DNA of 39,708 bases from a virus (taxonomy: Duplodnaviria > Heunggongvirae > Uroviricota > Caudoviricetes), in the IMG/VR virus record IMGVR_UViG_2909288124_000005, positions 1-39,708 of that record; one strand, given 5' to 3'. Position numbers and translations under genes: made by a program. The notes under the pieces were generated by a model. The model was not told where the DNA came from, searched no databases, and saw nothing but the letters and a program-made list of their open reading frames with translations. Shown here one piece after another: positions 1 to 39,332 of this stretch (the stretch's first letter is position 1; the number at the start of each line of letters is the position of its first letter).

Positions 1-582
1 ATGCGGTTGCATTTGCCAGAGCTTGACGATGTTGTTTGGATGAAGGGTGTATTGATGCTAAATGTAAGGTTTGATTCAGAAAAGGCTTTAGAGGCCATTC
101 TGTACGTCGCCTCTAAAGCACCGATCCCAGATATCTATCATGTCGGAAAAATTCTTTATTATGCTGACAGGTTTCACCTTGAAAGTTTTGGACGCCTCAT
201 AACGGGCGATCACTATAACGCTATGAAGGATGGGCCTGTAGCAAGCAACACATACGATATTATAAAAATTGCTCGTGGAGATGGACGTTACATTCCTAAT
301 GGTTGTGATGTCGATTCTGTGCGAAAAGCATTTTCTGTATCAGGTATGATGATTGTGCCGAGCCGTGAAGCTGATGAAGACTTTTTTAGTGACTCAGATT
401 TAGAGTGTATTGATAAGTCTATCGCGATGCTTGGAAACATGTCCTTTGAAGCTATCAGAACCATGAGCCATGACGCGGCATGGGAACAGGCAGATCACAA
501 TGGTGAGATGTCTTTGGAATCGATAGTTGCACAGCTAAAAAATAGCAAATTAATACTGGATTATCTGAAGAACGGATATTGA
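1..582 (+). CDS. Panacea (DUF4065)-like domain protein, possible antitoxin; may extend 5' beyond window
   Basis: Stretch GKILYYADRFHLESFGRLITGDHYNAMKDGPV matches my recollection of the Panacea signature; ORF begins at window edge. Confidence 0.45.
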   Translation: MRLHLPELDDVVWMKGVLMLNVRFDSEKALEAILYVASKAPIPDIYHVGKILYYADRFHLESFGRLITGDHYNAMKDGPVASNTYDIIKIARGDGRYIPNGCDVDSVRKAFSVSGMMIVPSREADEDFFSDSDLECIDKSIAMLGNMSFEAIRTMSHDAAWEQADHNGEMSLESIVAQLKNSKLILDYLKNGY

Positions 583-1049
583 TACTTATGCTGGGTGATT
601 GTTTCCCTCCTGATTTTAAGGCTAATTTTAGTCATGAAAGAGGTATATCACCCGGTGATGTATTGTATCTTCATTGTGATTTTACGACCCCACCTAAAGT
701 AAAATATATGGTGGTTGTTTGCTGTGAACCTCTTTTAGTTCTTCTAATAAATTCAGATATAAATGAATTTATTAAGAGAAACAATGATCTTATGGCTTGT
801 CAGGTCGAAATTAATAGAGAGGACCATGATTTTCTTAAATGGGACTCATTTGTTAATTGCATTGAGGCTCATGCTGCTTTCGATCTTGAAATTATTAAAG
901 AGAAAATAGCCATCCAATATGGCGACGTGCTAAAAGGTCGCATTACAGATCATTGTATGAGACAAGTTCGATGTGCAGTTGAGATATCTAAAATCATGGT
1001 TAAACGGCATAAAAAACTGATACTCGCTGCTCTTCAACATTATGAATAA
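579..1049 (+). CDS. Hypothetical 156-aa protein coupled to the upstream Panacea-like gene (candidate toxin/effector)
   Basis: TTG at 579 overlaps upstream stop TGA 580-582; alternative ATG at 588; visibly AT-rich; no domain recognised. Confidence 0.5.
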   Translation: MILMLGDCFPPDFKANFSHERGISPGDVLYLHCDFTTPPKVKYMVVVCCEPLLVLLINSDINEFIKRNNDLMACQVEINREDHDFLKWDSFVNCIEAHAAFDLEIIKEKIAIQYGDVLKGRITDHCMRQVRCAVEISKIMVKRHKKLILAALQHYE

Positions 1050-1069
1050 ACCCACCTTTGGATGGGTTT
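1048..1069. terminator. Bidirectional hairpin terminator between convergent genes
   Basis: AAACCCA (1048-1054) pairs with TGGGTTT (1063-1069), 8-nt loop, T-rich flank. Confidence 0.4.
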
Positions 1070-1082
1070 ATTCATATTCTAT

Positions 1083-1382
1083 TTAAATGAGCCTTTGTTT
1101 ATGGGTTCTGACCCTTTCCCACTCAGCACGCCCTTCTTCTCGCCTTTTGTCTATGTATTCCGCAAGATCCTGAATATTGATGCAACGTTTTGCTTTTTGT
1201 GATGTGCCGATGCGATATGTTGGAACGGGCAACTTACAAGCGTTTGCTTTTGCTTCTGCCGTGGCTGGACTCATGCCAAAGTACTTTTGGCTAACTGCTG
1301 AGAGTTCAATGTTAGGGGTATTGAATTCAGCCATCAGTAAAAACAAGGTGTTCATAATTTTCTCCATCAAAACCGGCTGCAC
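1083..1382 (-). CDS. PrtN-like DNA-binding protein (excisionase/activator-like)
   Basis: 99 aa; MNTLFLLMAEF...PVPTYRIG pattern recalled from PrtN/AlpA-like phage regulators. Confidence 0.4.
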   Translation of the reverse strand: MQPVLMEKIMNTLFLLMAEFNTPNIELSAVSQKYFGMSPATAEAKANACKLPVPTYRIGTSQKAKRCINIQDLAEYIDKRREEGRAEWERVRTHKQRLI

Positions 1383-7872: not shown

Positions 7873-8705
7873 ACAGTTTAACGGCAAATAACCGTTTGTC
7901 GCAACAGCTGGTGGTCAGCGTCGCTGAACACCTGTTGTTACGGCATGAATGCAGATTACCAAATCACCTGGCTGTAAGTAACCACAGAGAACTTTACCTG
8001 ACTGTGGGGGGCGAGTTGTGCAGGAACTTAACCGCTGGTTTCGTGACGGAAGAGGGCTTTATGTCCATGTTATTCGTTGGGAGCCAGAAACACAGCGCGT
8101 TATCTATCTTCGCAAAGACTACCCGCATGAGTGCTTTAGTCCTTTGTGGAAATTCAGGCGTGATTTTGTTGAGTGTGAAGGACCACCAGCACATTGATTC
8201 TGCCATTCCGGGACGTTACACTGTTCAGGCACCTTATAAAGCGGGTGTCGGGATTGGCGTCCTGGAATTGCATACGGCGACAATTGGCGCGTTAGCGTCT
8301 TTTTTGTTGCTACAACTCAGCTATACCCAAATTATGGTGGGCTGGGTGGGGGCACCGAAAGGTGCGCCGGTTTCCGTATGCGCCGGTTACGCCAACCCTG
8401 CTCAGTTCACCACCAGCGAAATTGGCGTTTCCGGTGGTGGAAGTTATCCATTGCATACGGAGGCTGCCATCATGGCTACTGTCCCAGCCCTCACTCGTCT
8501 GAATGATGAAGACTTACATAAACTCAGTTATGTAACAACTGCACTACGTGCTCTGCGCAAGGTAACTCTTTCGGATCCGCAGGCGCATCAAGTTCTGGTA
8601 GAAACCCTTCTTAACTTGCAGGCTGAACGTATTCGTCTGGCGGATAAGACTAATTTTCATATTCACCGTCTCCTGAATATCAGCGGAGGGCATCGTCATG
8701 CTTAA
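7869..8705 (+). CDS. Hypothetical protein (278 aa)
   Basis: Long open frame, start overlaps upstream stop (ATGA) and end overlaps next start; no domain recognised. Confidence 0.4.
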   Translation: MNSLTANNRLSQQLVVSVAEHLLLRHECRLPNHLAVSNHRELYLTVGGELCRNLTAGFVTEEGFMSMLFVGSQKHSALSIFAKTTRMSALVLCGNSGVILLSVKDHQHIDSAIPGRYTVQAPYKAGVGIGVLELHTATIGALASFLLLQLSYTQIMVGWVGAPKGAPVSVCAGYANPAQFTTSEIGVSGGGSYPLHTEAAIMATVPALTRLNDEDLHKLSYVTTALRALRKVTLSDPQAHQVLVETLLNLQAERIRLADKTNFHIHRLLNISGGHRHA

Positions 8706-16339: not shown

Positions 16340-16493
16340 AACCCCTCAGCCTGATTTACCTGATCATTTTACGTGGGGCTCGAGCTTAGATCTGAATGTC
16401 GCCTTGTTGTCTGCATTGGCGCAGTGTAATACCGATAAAGCTGACATCAGAAGGATTGAAGTTGAGCGTGGTCACATCATGCAAAAAAAATGA
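16224..16493 (+). CDS. Rz1-like outer-membrane lipoprotein spanin
   Basis: Alternate frame within and beyond Rz; signal peptide with lipobox LLTGC; proline-rich mature region. Confidence 0.55.
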   Translation: MMIVLHVLCLLPLLTGCGSTRTVYVQVPVVPLPASLTAETPQPDLPDHFTWGSSLDLNVALLSALAQCNTDKADIRRIEVERGHIMQKK

Positions 16494-16585
16494 TGTTAAC
16501 TTTGTTTTGTTCCTTGATTTGATATGTGATGGCCCAATAGATACAAAGCACCTGATTTTGGTGACTCTTTTAAAGGGCTTTACAC

Positions 16586-16906
16586 ATGAAAGATGGTATC
16601 TATTTTGTTGTTTTCAGAAGCAATCAACGTGATTTTGGTAATGGTACCGTAGTTGTCAAAAACAATGCAGTAAACGGCGGAGATTTTGGTTTTACGTATC
16701 AGGGAAAAATTGACGGTAGCCAACTTATTCTGCGCGTATCGCAGCATGATTTAAATGTCACCTCGGTTTTCCCTGGGGTAAAGAACTTTGAATTGAGTCT
16801 TTCTTTGCAGGAACGAGGACGTGATTACCTGTTAAATGGATCTGTGGTCGGAATGCCTCAGATGCAAATTTCAATTAGTGCAAAATACATTGGTGATCTG
16901 ATTTAG
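16586..16906 (+). CDS. GrlR-like protein (moron)
   Basis: MKDGIYFVVFRSN...NGGDFGFTYQGK resembles recalled GrlR N-terminus (MKDGIYSIIFISN...GGD...YQG); own terminator downstream. Confidence 0.4.
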   Translation: MKDGIYFVVFRSNQRDFGNGTVVVKNNAVNGGDFGFTYQGKIDGSQLILRVSQHDLNVTSVFPGVKNFELSLSLQERGRDYLLNGSVVGMPQMQISISAKYIGDLI

Positions 16907-16925
16907 TTTATCGAGATGATAATTG

Positions 16926-34167: not shown

Positions 34168-34170
34168 TCC

Positions 34171-34818
34171 ATGCATCGTATAGACACGAAAACCGCGCAG
34201 AAGGATAAGTTCGGCGCGGGTAAGAACGGTTTTACCCGTGGTAACCCCCAGACCGGCACACCTGCCACCGATCTGGATGATGACTACTTTGACATGTTGC
34301 AGGAAGAACTTTGTAGCGTGGTGGAGGCCTCCGGTGCCAGCCTGGAGAAAGGGCGGCATGACCAGCTGCTTACCGCACTTCGTGCGCTGCTGTTAAGCCG
34401 CAAGAATCCGTTTGGCGATATCAAATCGGATGGCACTGTGCAAACGGCTCTCGAAAACCTTGGTTTGGGAGAAGCGGCGAAAAGGGATGTGGGCACAGGA
34501 GATAATCAGATACCGGATATGGGAGCATTCGCTTCTGGTTCGGGATGGTTCAGGCTACCAGGTGGATATATTGTTCAGTTTGGCACTTTTTCAGGAAACA
34601 CGACCCGCTTTATCAGTGGACACTTCCCTATACCATTCCCTAATCAGCCGATGGTTTCAGTCAGTGTTATGTCTGATGCCGTTCAGTCAGATCCGTCGAA
34701 TCCTGCCCCGCAGGTTTTGTCTGTAAATTTTGAACATATCAGTAATTCAGCGTGGCGTGTGGCAACCAGTGATATCTCACAGCAATACAGATTCAGTTAT
34801 ATTTCGATAGGACGGTAG
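34171..34818 (+). CDS. Tail fibre protein; C-terminal part lies inside invertible segment
   Basis: Crossover repeat at 34461-34479 encodes LGLGEAA within the ORF. Confidence 0.7.
34461..34479. repeat. Left inversion crossover site
   Basis: TTGGTTTGGGAGAAGCGGC; exact reverse complement at 36009-36027; adjacent AAACCTTGGTTT palindromic core. Confidence 0.8.
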
Positions 34819-34820
34819 AA

Positions 34821-35261
34821 ATGCAGAAATATATTTTCAGTGCCGATAAAAATGCGTTTTTCCCTGTGGAGCTTAAAATCGCTTATCAGGAGTCCGGCGA
34901 ATGGCCCGATGATGGAATCGAAATTGACGACACTATTGCCGCCGAATTTATGAAGGAAGCACCAGAAGGAAAATACAGAGGTGTCATCGACGGAATGCCA
35001 GCATGGATTGATATTCCACCGCCAACTCATGAGGAACAAATTGCCGCAGCCGAACTGGAAAAGCAGCAATTGATTAATCAGATCAACGAACACATGAACA
35101 GCAGGCAATTGCCTGGTAAAGCGGCTATTGGTCGTCTGAAAGGTGAGGAACTGGCGCAATATAATTTATGGCTTGATTATCTGGACGCACTGGAACTGGT
35201 TGATACTTCCGGTGCGCCAGATATTGAATGGCCTACGCCTCCGGCAGTTCAGGCCAGATGA
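34821..35261 (+). CDS. Tail fibre assembly protein
   Basis: PPPTHEEQIAAAE...W..YLDAL...DTSGAP motifs. Confidence 0.75.
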   Translation: MQKYIFSADKNAFFPVELKIAYQESGEWPDDGIEIDDTIAAEFMKEAPEGKYRGVIDGMPAWIDIPPPTHEEQIAAAELEKQQLINQINEHMNSRQLPGKAAIGRLKGEELAQYNLWLDYLDALELVDTSGAPDIEWPTPPAVQAR

Positions 35262-35649
35262 CATCAGGGGCCGTTGACGTATCGACGGCTTTCACCGCTT
35301 TTTTATGCGCCATCCACTCAGACAATTTCGCTTTATCCTCGTCACTTATATCGCCGAGCATTAATTCAACCCGCCAGTCGGCGGTTACTTCGTCAATCTG
35401 CTGTAGCCGTTGCTGGCGATATTGTTCTGCCGCCGCTATTTGCTCTTCATGCGTTGGAGGCGGCGCATCGACCCATGCGGGCAGTCCAGTGCTATCTGCA
35501 CCAAGCATTTTACCTTCAGGCCAGGCAATACCAGCAAATTGGTTGTAGAGGTTAACACTGATTTCAATAGCTGATTCAGGAATAAACCTGCTTTCAGGTT
35601 CAATATAAAATCCGTTATCAACGGCGTCGTAAAAGTATCTTGTTTTCAT
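35233..35649 (-). CDS. Alternative tail fibre assembly protein
   Basis: Same motifs, opposite strand inside invertible segment. Confidence 0.7.
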   Translation of the reverse strand: MKTRYFYDAVDNGFYIEPESRFIPESAIEISVNLYNQFAGIAWPEGKMLGADSTGLPAWVDAPPPTHEEQIAAAEQYRQQRLQQIDEVTADWRVELMLGDISDEDKAKLSEWMAHKKAVKAVDTSTAPDVIWPELPEA

Positions 35650-35650
35650 G

Positions 35651-36022
35651 TTAATAACCTATTGCGAATAAACAACCGGCAGCTGAAGCACCCGCCCATG
35701 AAGTCCCATTAGTTGTTCTTAAAACTCGAACTTTGACTGTCGTTCTGGTAGAGCCACCAATATCGAAGCCCCACGTTGTGCCGGCCGATCCATTCCACGA
35801 GCTAGCAGAAGCACCTGAGTCAATCGCAGTGGCATGAAACAGAGCGTTAGGAAATGCCATAGGTAATGTCACGGTTGCTACTCCAGTCGAATCGGAAAGA
35901 AATCCAGAGACCCACTGGAAAATGATATTTTGTTCAACCCCACCAATTAAAGCCGGGATCAATATTCTCCCGGTATTACCCGTTACCCCTACAGCAGCGC
36001 CAAGTTTTGCCGCTTCTCCCAA
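35651..36022 (-). CDS. Alternative tail-fibre C-terminal segment (promoterless until inversion)
   Basis: Begins in-frame with the right crossover repeat encoding GLGEAAK, same as the fibre gene at the left site. Confidence 0.65.
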   Translation of the reverse strand: MGEAAKLGAAVGVTGNTGRILIPALIGGVEQNIIFQWVSGFLSDSTGVATVTLPMAFPNALFHATAIDSGASASSWNGSAGTTWGFDIGGSTRTTVKVRVLRTTNGTSWAGASAAGCLFAIGY

Positions 36023-36027
36023 ACCAA
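36009..36027. repeat. Right inversion crossover site
   Basis: GCCGCTTCTCCCAAACCAA, reverse complement of 34461-34479. Confidence 0.8.
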
Positions 36028-36098
36028 CCTTTCAAATATTTTTCTGAATCAGGTGATATTTCGCCTCTTCTCCTGTTTTTACAACAGGAGAAGCACTC

Positions 36099-36662
36099 AT
36101 GATTTACGGGTATGTTCGTGTATCAACAAATCATCAGGATACAGAGTTGCAACGTCTTGCACTTGAGTCAGCTGGCTGTGAGCGAATTTATGAAGAATAT
36201 GCCAGTGGCAGAACAGCTAATCGCCCTGTGTTAAAGGAATTAATTACGGTGATGAAAAGTGGAGATGAGTTGATTGTCTGGAAGTTAGATCGGATAGGGA
36301 GAAATGTGCTGCATGCGCTATTGATGTTTCAAAATCTGCACGAAAAAGGTGTTAATTTTCGGAGTATTACAGATGGCGTAGACCTGAAAACAGCAAGTGG
36401 TCGCTATAATTTCCGTAATATTCTTTCTGCTGCGCAGTATGAATCTGATTTGAATAGCGAGCGAACTTTAGCTGGTTTGGCTATTGCCAGATCCAAAGGC
36501 CGGATTGGTGGGCGTAGACCGAAGTTTAGCGACGAGCAGTGGAGACAGATGGGAGCGCTCATAGCGGCAGGGAAATCACGGCGTTATGTTGCACGTATCT
36601 ATAACGTTGGGCTATCAACCCTATATAAACGATTTCCTGTTACTGGCATTCAAACGAAATAA
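36099..36662 (+). CDS. Serine DNA invertase (Hin/Gin/Pin/Cin family)
   Basis: N-terminal YGYVRVSTNHQD with catalytic Ser context, C-terminal HTH; adjacent to invertible segment. Confidence 0.9.
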   Translation: MIYGYVRVSTNHQDTELQRLALESAGCERIYEEYASGRTANRPVLKELITVMKSGDELIVWKLDRIGRNVLHALLMFQNLHEKGVNFRSITDGVDLKTASGRYNFRNILSAAQYESDLNSERTLAGLAIARSKGRIGGRRPKFSDEQWRQMGALIAAGKSRRYVARIYNVGLSTLYKRFPVTGIQTK

Positions 36663-37108: not shown

Positions 37109-38206
37109 TCAAGAGGCCTTATTTCTGCTCCTTTGGAGCTCTTCAAAACGATTATGTAAAGATTTCGGATACAGTTCGGTATATACCTGCCATAGCACGT
37201 TTAATGAACGATGCCCTGTAACCTGGGCGACTTCCTCAATACTAAAACCAGCCTCAAATAAGCGACTTGCCCCTTCTCTACGCAAATCATGGTATCGTAG
37301 ATCTTTAATACCTAATTTGCTTCTTACCCTCTGGAATCCCGCAGTAACAGAAGTGCTGTTATATGGAAAAATGAATTCTGATTTTTTGGGTTGTCGTTGG
37401 ACGATATCCCAGGCTTCCCCAAGCAAGGCTACTTTCATATGGTTGCCTTCCTTTTTACGTGGATCTTTCCTGTCTCTTACGAGTATGGATTTTTGTTCCT
37501 GATCGAGATCCTCCCATCGTAATCGGCATACTTCACCGATTCGCATACATGACCACACAGAAAATTTGAGGATATCAACGAACGGAATTTTTGAGCATTT
37601 ATGTGTAGATCGTTGTTGAAGACCTTCAATGAGCATGTCCAGTTCATCAGATGCCGGTCTACGATTACGACGATTTGATTTACCAATTAAACCAAGTTTA
37701 AGTAGATATGGACGAGCGGCTTTTGCTGGGTTTGATGTGTAATTAATTCCATATACAGGTTTGGCAGCATCCAGAACACTGCCAAGATAACTAACATCGT
37801 GGCTAACTGTAGCTGGACCTGCACCAGCGTTGTTTCTTAGCCTGCAATGTTCAATTACGTCATTTTCTGTCAGTTCAGATAGTTTGATCGCGGAGATGTC
37901 ACTATCCATAAGCAGTTCCAGCACATATCTTTTAGTACGGCCTGCTTTACCTCCGGCATTTGGGTCATTTAAATATTTGTGTAGTAAGTCACGGACTGTA
38001 AGTCCGTCAACTGCATTTGATGATGGAATGCCATATAGATCTAATTCCATCACTTTCTGTGTGCCCCATGTTTTGGCATGAGCATGTTTAGGGAATGTTT
38101 TACTTTCCCTGTAAGTGATAACACCTTTTTCTTTGATAATCACATTACAGCGATAGCGTGGTGTGCCATCGGATTTTAGTCGTTTCTCTATGTTATAGTA
38201 CGCCAT
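37109..38206 (-). CDS. Tyrosine integrase, dusA-associated type
   Basis: C-terminal R...H..LRR...Y catalytic pattern (RYHDLRR...GHRSL...Y); start 89 bp from dusA start, divergent. Confidence 0.9.
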   Translation of the reverse strand: MAYYNIEKRLKSDGTPRYRCNVIIKEKGVITYRESKTFPKHAHAKTWGTQKVMELDLYGIPSSNAVDGLTVRDLLHKYLNDPNAGGKAGRTKRYVLELLMDSDISAIKLSELTENDVIEHCRLRNNAGAGPATVSHDVSYLGSVLDAAKPVYGINYTSNPAKAARPYLLKLGLIGKSNRRNRRPASDELDMLIEGLQQRSTHKCSKIPFVDILKFSVWSCMRIGEVCRLRWEDLDQEQKSILVRDRKDPRKKEGNHMKVALLGEAWDIVQRQPKKSEFIFPYNSTSVTAGFQRVRSKLGIKDLRYHDLRREGASRLFEAGFSIEEVAQVTGHRSLNVLWQVYTELYPKSLHNRFEELQRSRNKAS

Positions 38207-38294
38207 TACACGACCTCGTTATTTCGGGTTCCCATAAAACGTGGGAACCTGTGCGGGAACCTAACGCGAGAAAAATAGCCTGAAATGTTCAAAA

Positions 38295-39332
38295 ATGCAC
38301 GATAATCATGAAACACAAAAAATTAATCAAACCAGCGTGATGCCTGAAAAAACTGGTGTTTACTGGAATTCTCGGTTTAGCATTGCCCCTATGCTCGACT
38401 GGACGGACAGACATTGCCGCTATTTCTTGCGTCTGCTTTCCCGCAATACGTTGCTGTATACCGAAATGGTGACCACAGGGGCGATTATTCACGGTAAAGG
38501 TGATTATCTGGCGTACAGTGAAGAAGAACATCCGGTAGCGTTGCAACTGGGCGGTAGCGATCCGGCGGCGCTGGCGCAGTGTGCAAAGCTGGCAGAAGCG
38601 CGCGGATATGATGAGATCAACCTGAATGTCGGCTGCCCGTCTGACCGGGTGCAGAACGGCATGTTTGGTGCGTGTCTGATGGGTAATGCGCAGCTGGTTG
38701 CCGACTGCGTGAAAGCGATGCGCGATGTGGTGTCGATTCCGGTGACGGTGAAAACGCGTATTGGCATCGACGACCAGGACAGCTATGAATTTCTCTGCGA
38801 TTTCATCAATACCGTTTCCGGCAATGGCGAGTGTGAGATGTTCATCATCCACGCACGTAAAGCCTGGCTTTCGGGGTTAAGCCCGAAAGAAAACCGTGAA
38901 ATCCCGCCGCTCGATTATCCGCGTGTGTATCAACTGAAGCGTGACTTTCCGCATCTGACAATGTCGATTAACGGTGGTATCAAGTCGCTGGAAGAGGCCA
39001 AAGCACACCTGCAACATATGGATGGCGTGATGGTCGGGCGCGAGGCGTATCAGAATCCGGGTATTCTGGCGGCGGTAGACCGGGAGATCTTTGGTTCCTC
39101 GGATACCGATGCCGATCCGGTGGCGGTAGTGCGCGCCATGTATCCGTACATTGAGCGTGAACTCAGCCAGGGGACGTATCTCGGCCATATTACCCGGCAT
39201 ATGTTGGGCTTGTTCCAGGGTATTCCTGGCGCGCGGCAGTGGCGGCGTTATTTAAGTGAAAATGCCCATAAAGCGGGTGCAGACATTAATGTGCTGGAAC
39301 ACGCGCTCAAACTGGTGGCGGATAAGCGTTAA
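38295..39332 (+). CDS. dusA: tRNA-dihydrouridine synthase A; 5' end probably prophage-supplied
   Basis: Dus-family sequence throughout; followed by pspG as in E. coli. Confidence 0.9.

What the first reader, a model, noticed from the sequence alone, without database searches (positions are those of the whole stretch)
1..1082. AT-rich cargo module at the prophage edge: Panacea-like protein with a coupled orphan 156-aa partner
ORF 1..582 carries a stretch (KILYYADRFHLESFGRLITGDHYNAMKDGPV) that matches what I recall of the Panacea/DUF4065 domain, a promiscuous antitoxin domain paired with many unrelated toxins. The next ORF starts overlapping its stop (TTG 579 / ATG 588), has no domain I recognise, and is markedly more AT-rich than the surrounding prophage. 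The pair is on the strand opposite the early-left operon and ends at a 7-bp-stem hairpin (1048-1069). This is the classic layout of a toxin-antitoxin or anti-phage defence moron, and the partner could be a new toxin or effector family.
Basis: partly seen in the sequence, partly recalled or inferred. Interest (0 to 1): 0.8.

Follow-up and report, generated by a model that had tools for sequence, protein, structure and literature searches.

The report
Prophage PanA antitoxin with MazF-like toxin
The two genes at the edge of this E. coli prophage are a Panacea-type toxin-antitoxin pair whose "unrecognisable" partner has the fold of the MazF RNA-cutting toxins, a pairing that two papers had already predicted by computer but that nobody has tested in this form.

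Summary
ORF1 (1-582) is a complete Panacea/DUF4065 protein (Pfam PF13274, E=6.8e-20). ORF2 matches no sequence family and is the most AT-rich stretch of the window (34.8% versus 50.8% GC). The pair is the first cargo inside attL of a dusA-integrated prophage of E. coli FAM21845.

The partner is not an orphan or a new family.
- The family has more than 1,200 clusters at 50% identity.
- A PanA gene lies directly upstream in every homologous locus where the upstream DNA could be read.
- A 52%-identical Photorhabdus homologue is listed as predicted PanT toxin cluster T5 in Kurata et al. 2022 (HHpred 99.5% to EndoA/MazF).
- The 46%-identical pair in Serratia phage OS31 was described in 2020 as a putative new TA system.

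No pair of this cluster has been validated. One T5 toxin was toxic, but so was its PanA.

In sister E. coli prophages the same slot holds the experimentally validated PanAT_Esc.col pair or a pair of unknown genes, so it is a swappable cargo site.

Most likely this is a type II TA module with an RNase toxin, acting in abortive infection or prophage addiction. It is a new member of a known kind, of modest interest.

The parts
1..582 (+). panA: stand-alone Panacea (DUF4065) antitoxin gene. It is 193 aa from the ATG at 1 (RefSeq WP_001547985.1). The start conserved among homologues is the ATG at 55, which gives 175 aa.
   Evidence: Pfam PF13274 E=6.8e-20. PHROG 1281 E=1.5e-20. An upstream in-frame stop and an AGGAGG are seen in L001. 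Homologues begin at M19. The AF2 model of the 175-aa form has pLDDT 95.2 and is one compact domain with no extra N-terminal domain.
588..1049 (+). panT: 153-aa predicted toxin with a MazF/PemK/Kid fold (RefSeq WP_081178233.1). An alternative TTG start lies at 579. Family-wide invariant residues are G23, K39, N55 and S87. F32, S56, F82, L83 and C91 are nearly invariant.
1041..1076 (.). Strong hairpin between the convergent panT and xis genes. It overlaps the last codons and the stop codon of panT. It resembles an intrinsic terminator for the + strand (tail UUCUAUUU). There is no U-tract on the - strand.
   Evidence: The terminator scan finds 14 pairs with a loop of 8. RNA folds give dG -19.5 (z -4.7) on + and -23.8 (z -6.4) on -.
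1083..1355 (-). Context: PrtN-family (excisionase-like) gene, the last gene of the leftward early operon. It marks the inner border of the cargo slot.
   Evidence: Pfam PF11112 E=3.9e-23. RefSeq annotation. Sequence shared with 741 E. coli genomes begins at about 1083-1105, and only 46 of them share 1-1082.
38292..38398 (+). Context: the phage-supplied 5' end of dusA at attR. It is 83% identical to the displaced 105-bp dusA remnant at attL, which ends 141 nt upstream of window position 1. This fixes the prophage boundary and places panAT as the first genes inside attL. The integrase (37109-38206, - strand) is at this far end.
   Evidence: blastn of the attL region against the window end. Annotation of NZ_CP017220.1.

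Best explanation
This is a two-gene PanAT toxin-antitoxin operon carried as cargo by a dusA-integrating E. coli prophage.

Operon layout (inferred):
- panA and panT are probably transcribed together from a sigma-70-like promoter in the 140-nt leader between attL and panA. The leader lies just outside the window.
- The transcript probably ends at the hairpin at 1041-1076.
- The 5-nt gap between the genes favours coupled translation.

PanT (fold shown on a predicted model; activity inferred):
- It has the SH3-like barrel of the MazF/PemK/Kid/CcdB toxins, with extra N- and C-terminal helices.
- It most likely acts as a ribosome-independent endoribonuclease that arrests growth by cutting RNA.
- The family-invariant K39 and N55/S56 lie, by strand register, where MazF has its catalytic Arg and Thr.
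- The invariant D86-S87 lines up with the conserved MazF 'DS' motif.

PanA (inferred by analogy):
- It is a single-domain Panacea protein with no DNA-binding or other accessory domain.
- It most likely neutralises PanT by direct binding in a type II complex, as shown for other stand-alone PanAs.

Biological role (inferred, not shown): either abortive-infection protection of the lysogen against other phages, or post-segregational 'addiction' that penalises loss of the prophage.
For: Identity of the parts:
- Panacea domain in ORF1.

Conserved pairing:
- A PanA homologue ends 5-80 nt upstream of the PanT homologue in 14 of 14 genome loci, with co-divergence (PanA 40-68% identity, PanT 40-63%).
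- The same arrangement is seen for metagenomic representatives P0038, P0100, P0200 and P0228.
- It is also seen in Serratia phage OS31.

Family placement:
- WP_054475897.1 is 52% identical to ORF2. Kurata et al. 2022 Dataset S1 lists it as PanT cluster T5.
- The HHpred result for that cluster is EndoA/MazF at 99.5%.
- One T5 toxin, from Chryseobacterium bovis, was toxic in E. coli.
- PanA-PanT complexes and direct neutralisation by stand-alone Panacea are shown for other pairs in PMC8832971 and PMC10440598.

Cargo context:
- The same slot in sister prophages carries the validated PanAT_Esc.col pair, with PanA WP_000287252.1.
- The pair has the lowest GC in the window.
- A promoter-like site, a Shine-Dalgarno sequence and a terminator are present.
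- A +1 frameshift allele truncates panT while panA stays intact in some strains, as expected for a costly toxin gene.
Against: - There is no experiment on this pair or on any close homologue.
- The only tested T5 pair was not validated as a TA system, because its PanA was itself toxic.
- Two phage or prophage PanA-associated 'mRNase' partners of another cluster (T1) were non-toxic in E. coli.
- Sequence methods available here do not link ORF2 to MazF. No member of 68 hits Pfam PemK. A profile search of PDB sequences finds nothing. hhalign against 1 or 5 MazF sequences is insignificant.
- The fold rests on a predicted model.
- The catalytic Arg of MazF is a Lys here and the Thr is an Asn-Ser. 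That mapping comes from strand register, not from a superposition.
- No PADLOC defence model matches.
Confidence: 0.65

Rival explanations
1. The pair is not a growth-arresting TA module. It is a non-toxic phage accessory pair, for example an RNA-binding or RNA-processing factor with its partner, used in the phage's own development or in superinfection exclusion without host killing.
For: Kurata et al. found that 8 of 25 tested putative PanTs were not toxic in E. coli. These included the PanA-linked 'mRNase' partners from Salmonella phage Emek and from an E. coli prophage. This family has no experimental data.
Against: The non-toxic cases belong to other clusters (T1, T8, T9). The one tested T5 member was toxic. 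Strict co-occurrence with PanA and a toxin-only frameshift allele fit a toxin that needs a guardian.
Confidence: 0.15
2. PanT is a CcdB-like poison of DNA gyrase, or of another protein target, rather than an RNase.
Against: All ten better hits are MazF/Kid-type toxins, with 10-23% identity against 7% for CcdB. The only in-register sequence alignment is to the MazF 'DS...Q.R' segment. HHpred of cluster T5 ranks EndoA/MazF (99.5%) above CcdB (98.3-98.6%).
Confidence: 0.07
3. It is a SocAB-like type VI system, in which PanA acts as a protease adaptor that delivers PanT to ClpXP instead of masking it.
For: Panacea is the SocA domain. Some sources label the protein 'SocA family'.
Against: The NCBIfam SocA equivalog scores 17 bits against a cut-off of 190. 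PanT is unrelated to SocB. The PanATs tested by Kurata et al. form stable complexes, which is typical of type II systems.
Confidence: 0.07

Closest known systems
PanAT systems, predicted toxin cluster T5 (Kurata et al. 2022, PNAS, PMC8832971)
   Same: A stand-alone Panacea antitoxin sits upstream of a toxin of about 150 aa that has no CDD or Pfam hit but resembles MazF/EndoA by HHpred. The gene order is antitoxin then toxin, with a gap of a few nucleotides. A 52%-identical Photorhabdus homologue is a listed member.
   Different: This E. coli/Salmonella prophage version is absent from the held part of Dataset S1; the accessions were searched for and not found, and the stored file is truncated. 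No T5 pair has been validated as a TA system. The single tested toxin was toxic, but so was its PanA.
Serratia phage vB_SspS_OS31 p23/p24 (Int J Mol Sci 2020, PMC7556043)
   Same: The pair is homologous: PanA 49% identical and PanT 46% identical. It is also phage-borne, has an AGGAGG before panA, and its toxin is MazF-like by HHpred (98.9%). The authors proposed it as a new TA system.
   Different: In OS31 the pair lies between the Q antiterminator and a methyltransferase/lysis region, not at the att site. Its genes overlap by 1 nt. It is untested experimentally.
PanAT_Esc.col (E. coli STEC O31; PanA WP_000287252.1 with a membrane toxin, cluster T3)
   Same: It occupies exactly the same slot, between the dusA attL remnant and the PrtN-like xis, in sister E. 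coli prophages. It has the same gene order and orientation. It is a validated TA system.
   Different: The whole cassette differs. The two PanAs share only about 33% identity over 40 residues. The toxin there is a 182-aa predicted membrane protein unrelated to ORF2.
MazEF / Kid-Kis / PemIK type II TA systems
   Different: The antitoxin is a globular Panacea protein, not an AbrB/SpoVT-type MazE with a disordered tail. The toxin is about 40 residues longer, with extra N- and C-terminal helices. It fails Pfam PF02452. It has Lys and Asn-Ser where MazF has Arg and Thr (inferred).

Membership tests
PanAT (Panacea-antitoxin TA systems) | One partner carries the Panacea/DUF4065 domain (PF13274) | tested here: met
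   72.5 bits against a cut-off of 25.7, E=6.8e-20.
PanAT (Panacea-antitoxin TA systems) | [quoted passage not shown] | tested here: met
   14 of 14 genome loci across Photorhabdus, Proteus, Serratia, Atlantibacter and Idiomarina have PanA ending 5-80 nt upstream of the PanT match. The same holds for metagenomic loci and Serratia phage OS31.
PanAT (Panacea-antitoxin TA systems) | The toxin inhibits growth and PanA rescues it; PanA and PanT form a complex | not testable with these tools
   This needs expression and pull-down experiments. The only tested T5 pair was 'toxic/toxic'.
Kurata 2022 PanT cluster T5 | Sequence homology to listed cluster members | tested here: met
   ORF2 against WP_054475897.1 (P0044): 52% identity over 152 aa, E=3e-64. 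That accession is listed as pT5/T5.
MazF/PemK/Kid endoribonuclease superfamily | SH3-like barrel fold of MazF/CcdB | tested here: met
MazF/PemK/Kid endoribonuclease superfamily | Match to the family's sequence profile (Pfam PF02452 PemK_toxin) | tested here: not met
   None of 68 family members hits it at E<=0.1. A profile search of PDB sequences finds nothing. hhalign is insignificant. HHpred results reported by others are positive, at 99.5% and 98.9%.
MazF/PemK/Kid endoribonuclease superfamily | Catalytic Arg at the start of strand 2 and Thr/Ser at the end of strand 3 (E. coli MazF R29/T52; from my knowledge of the family) | tested here: inconclusive
   The invariant K39 and N55, and the nearly invariant S56, occupy those strand positions by register. 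No superposition was available. The Arg is replaced by Lys.
MazF/PemK/Kid endoribonuclease superfamily | Sequence-specific RNA cleavage | not testable with these tools
   This needs biochemistry.
SocAB (type VI TA) | SocA equivalog antitoxin paired with the SocB toxin | tested here: not met
   NCBIfam NF047745 scores 17.1 bits against a cut-off of 190. The partner has a MazF fold, not SocB.
Catalogued anti-phage defence systems (PADLOC-DB 2.0) | Match to a defence-system protein model | tested here: not met
   Neither protein has a hit at E<=1.

The most novel reading that the evidence does not exclude
This PanAT would be a prophage-encoded abortive-infection system. The globular Panacea protein would sense a cue from an infecting phage and release a divergent MazF-fold nuclease with a Lys/Asn-Ser active site and extra helices. 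That nuclease would cut a target different from those of canonical MazF toxins. This would be the first direct defence phenotype and the first trigger for a stand-alone PanA, in a native E. coli host where it can be tested easily.
Probability: 0.25. Interest if true: 0.55.

Novelty: new member of a known kind. Interest (0 to 1): 0.25.

Why it matters
The pair adds a native E. coli, prophage-borne example to a PanAT toxin cluster (T5) that has been predicted but never validated as a TA system. Because E. coli is the natural host, toxicity, neutralisation, RNA target and phage-defence tests would be simple to run.

The comparison with sister prophages is the more useful by-product. One fixed slot next to the dusA attachment site carries two unrelated PanAT cassettes or a third pair of unknown genes. 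This illustrates cassette swapping at a prophage cargo hotspot and points to that third pair as a candidate of unknown function.

The finding does not reveal a new kind of system.

Tried and rejected
Searches that found nothing for ORF2:
- Sequence searches against Pfam, NCBIfam, PADLOC, PHROGs and PDB gave nothing significant.
- A 68-sequence family profile against PDB sequences gave 0 hits at E<=10.
- A Pfam scan of all 68 members gave no PemK hit.
The second alignment was in the expected register.

A wasted search: I spent the last large homologue search on S. aureus MazF to build a richer profile. Only hits of 72% identity or more were listed, so it did not help.

Ideas rejected:
- The 65-aa ORF upstream of distant homologue P0228 first looked like a swapped or minimal antitoxin. 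tblastn showed a full-length PanA split by a frameshift in the contig.
- ORF1 as the truncated 3' end of a larger gene: rejected, because of the in-frame stop upstream.
- SocAB membership: rejected.
- A plasmid-borne origin: tblastn finds no hit in 72,556 plasmids.

Other negatives:
- Foldseek of the PanA model against the PDB gave no significant match.
- Searches for a published defence phenotype found none.
- I did not try a PanA-PanT co-fold.

Full report
**Where the window comes from**

The first 1,400 bases are 100% identical to E. coli FAM21845 (NZ_CP017220.1 4451393-4452792). Window position 1 is the annotated ATG of a 'Panacea domain-containing protein'.

The window is a myovirus-type prophage of about 39 kb with an e14-like regulatory region, inserted in dusA.
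- A 105-bp remnant of the original dusA 5' end lies 141 nt upstream of window position 1.
- That remnant is 83% identical to the phage-supplied dusA 5' end at window 38292-38398.
- The integrase (37109-38206, - strand) is at the far end, next to the restored dusA.
- The window ends with pspG.

The two genes of the finding are therefore the first genes inside attL. They sit between the attachment site and a PrtN-family excisionase-like gene (1083-1355, - strand; Pfam PF11112, E=3.9e-23).

**Checking the observation**

- **ORF1 (1-582):** it matches Pfam PF13274 SocA_Panacea at 72.5 bits (cut-off 25.7), E=6.8e-20, over residues 50-161.
- **ORF1 is complete:** the source genome has an in-frame TAA 16-18 nt upstream, an AGGAGG 5 nt before the ATG, and a promoter-like TTGACC-18-TAAGAT further up.
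- **Start of ORF1:** homologous PanAs start at the residue equivalent to M19 and are mostly 172-180 aa. The start may therefore be the ATG at 55 rather than at 1.
- **ORF2:** TTG 579 and ATG 588 both exist. RefSeq and the closest homologues (MLGD...) favour 588, which gives 153 aa and a 5-nt gap after the TGA at 580-582.
- **GC content:** ORF2 is 34.8% GC against 50.8% for the window. It is the lowest-GC region of the window.
- **Hairpin:** it is real but larger than described. The stem is 14-16 bp at 1041-1076, with dG -19.5 (z -4.7) on the + strand and -23.8 (z -6.4) on the - strand. Only the + strand has a U-rich tail.

**What ORF2 is**

Sequence libraries give nothing: Pfam, NCBIfam, PADLOC and PDB sequences have no significant hit. 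ORF2 is still not an orphan.
- The word-indexed search finds 41 clusters in Enterobacterales and a few other Gammaproteobacteria. All are 148-157 aa and 42-98% identical.
- An exhaustive HMMER profile search finds 1,248 representatives at 50% identity with E<=1e-3. Of these, 622 have E<=1e-10. Most of the 150 listed are about 150 aa.

An AlphaFold2 model built on 26 homologues is confident, with pLDDT 90.8 and pTM 0.84.
- The best viral structures are 'PemK-like protein' and 'Endoribonuclease'.
- Relative to MazF, the model has about 20 extra N-terminal helical residues and extra C-terminal helices.

Across 68 diverse members the invariant residues are G23, K39, N55 and S87. F32, S56, F82, L83 and C91 are nearly invariant.
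- By strand register, K39 opens strand 2 and N55/S56 close strand 3. MazF has its catalytic Arg and Thr at those positions (from my knowledge of the family). This mapping is an inference, not a superposition.
- The only sequence alignment to MazF that I obtained is statistically insignificant. It is in register and pairs D86-S87 with the conserved MazF 'DS'.

**Pairing with PanA**

- In 14 of 14 genome loci holding a PanT homologue, a PanA homologue ends 5-80 nt upstream of the PanT match. The two proteins diverge in parallel.
- Four sampled metagenomic representatives, down to about 30% identity, also have PF13274 genes directly upstream. In one of them the PanA gene is split by a frameshift. 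A fifth could not be read.
- The PanA model is a single compact domain (pLDDT 95.2) with no accessory N-terminal domain.
- All PanAs paired with this toxin family share a conserved C-terminal segment, 'SHD..W..AD.N.E..LE.I...L..YL'.

**Prior knowledge**

*Kurata et al. 2022 (PMC8832971)*
- The paper defined PanA/PanT. It showed direct complexes for several pairs and catalogued 88 toxin clusters.
- Its Dataset S1 lists Photorhabdus heterorhabditis WP_054475897.1 as cluster T5, paired with PanA WP_054475899.1. That protein is 52% identical to ORF2 (E=3e-64).
- The HHpred line for the cluster reads EndoA/MazF 99.5% and CcdB 98.3-98.6%.
- One T5 toxin, from Chryseobacterium bovis, was toxic in E. 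coli. Its PanA was toxic too, so the pair was not validated.
- Two validated PanTs of other clusters (T6, T25) are also MazF-like.

*Bujak et al. 2020 (PMC7556043)*
- The paper described p23/p24 of Serratia phage vB_SspS_OS31 as a putative new TA system: DUF4065 plus a MazF-like protein (HHpred 98.9%). It was not tested.
- p24 is 46% identical to ORF2 and p23 is 49% identical to PanA.

*Ernits et al. 2023 (PMC10440598)*
- The paper showed that stand-alone Panacea neutralises directly. [quoted passage not shown]

I found no paper reporting a phage-defence phenotype for this family. PADLOC has no model for it.

**The slot is a cargo hotspot**

Of 5,426 complete E. coli genomes, 741 share the xis/exo flank. 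Only 46 carry this module. In sister prophages at the same dusA site, the slot holds one of two other cassettes.
- **PanAT_Esc.col:** PanA WP_000287252.1 plus a 182-aa membrane protein. This PanA is the antitoxin of the experimentally validated PanAT_Esc.col pair of Kurata's Table 1, and the partner's accession (WP_000019186.1) is adjacent to the validated toxin's (WP_000019185.1). It occurs in 79 genomes.
- **Two unknown genes:** a 177-aa and a 57-aa gene (phrog_4350 and phrog_2741). They occur in 358-562 genomes, including O157:H7.

The two PanAs are barely related, with 33% identity over 40 residues. Whole cassettes are therefore exchanged, not only the toxin.

Some strains carry a +1 frameshift that truncates PanT to 112 aa while panA stays intact.

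No plasmid holds a homologue, and only one sequenced phage does.

**Mechanism and rivals**

| Explanation | Probability |
|---|---|
| Type II PanAT module with a MazF-fold RNase toxin, neutralised by direct PanA binding | 0.65 |
| Non-toxic phage accessory pair | 0.15 |
| CcdB-like gyrase poison | 0.07 |
| SocA-like protease-adaptor mechanism | 0.07 |

For the best-supported reading, the steps that are shown are the domain identities, the predicted fold, the conserved pairing, the cargo context and the family placement. The steps that are inferred are RNase activity, direct neutralisation, and the biological role (abortive infection or prophage addiction).

**Verdict**

The suggestion of a new toxin family is not supported. 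This is a new member of a known, bioinformatically described but experimentally unvalidated PanAT cluster. Interest is modest, at 0.25.

Noticed in passing
L025:3019-3922 and L026:3019-3922 (the same slot in E. coli CX21 and O157:H7 FRIK2533): In most sister dusA prophages (358-562 of 5,426 complete E. coli genomes) the slot occupied here by panAT holds a 177-aa gene (phrog_4350) and a 57-aa gene (phrog_2741). Neither has a Pfam or PADLOC hit. This pair is less well understood than the finding itself.
   Followed up: partly
L027:2912-3956 and L028:2905-3949: In 79 E. coli genomes the same slot holds PanA WP_000287252.1, the antitoxin of the experimentally validated PanAT_Esc.col pair, plus a 182-aa membrane protein. 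Two unrelated PanAT cassettes therefore alternate at one prophage site.
   Followed up: yes
window 900-910 (compare L030:1200-1215): Strains such as AST20 and O166:H15 isolates have one extra A in the A-run of GAGAAAATAG. This truncates PanT to 112 aa while panA stays intact. A 112-aa form is seen on 82 contigs.
   Followed up: partly
window 1-57: The first 18 codons of the annotated panA are not conserved in homologues. These begin at the equivalent of M19 and are typically 175 aa. The annotated 193-aa start may be too long, although it has the better Shine-Dalgarno sequence.
   Followed up: partly
window 8229-8417, + strand: There are two Rfam matches above the gathering score in the early-right region: isrK Hfq-binding RNA (8229-8305, 58.9 bits) and C4 antisense RNA (8330-8417, 80.7 bits). 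They lie in or next to the DUF4222/ash-family genes.
   Followed up: no
window 38292-38398 and L001:7753-7859: The prophage replaces the 5' end of dusA with its own copy, which is 83% identical. A 105-bp pseudogene remnant is left at attL. The integrase and the excisionase-like gene are at opposite ends of the integrated prophage. In the circular form, panAT and attP lie between xis and int.
   Followed up: partly
window about 16450-16910: This is the next most AT-rich spot in the window (38% GC). It coincides with a GrlR-family regulator gene between the lysis and terminase genes and may be another acquired cargo gene.
   Followed up: no
window about 34170-36660: Tail-fibre and tail-fibre-assembly genes occur in both orientations next to a serine recombinase ('recombinase family protein'). 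This suggests an invertible host-range segment.
   Followed up: no
PanA model (window 55-579): The confident PanA model (pLDDT 95.2) has no significant Foldseek match among 350,542 PDB chains. The Panacea fold appears to lack a solved representative in that copy.
   Followed up: partly
L017:551-4471: In a metagenomic relative the panAT pair lies in an integrase-bounded island, directly after a ParE/HTH toxin-antitoxin pair and before AlpA-family regulators. The module therefore also travels on non-phage or satellite-like islands.
   Followed up: no
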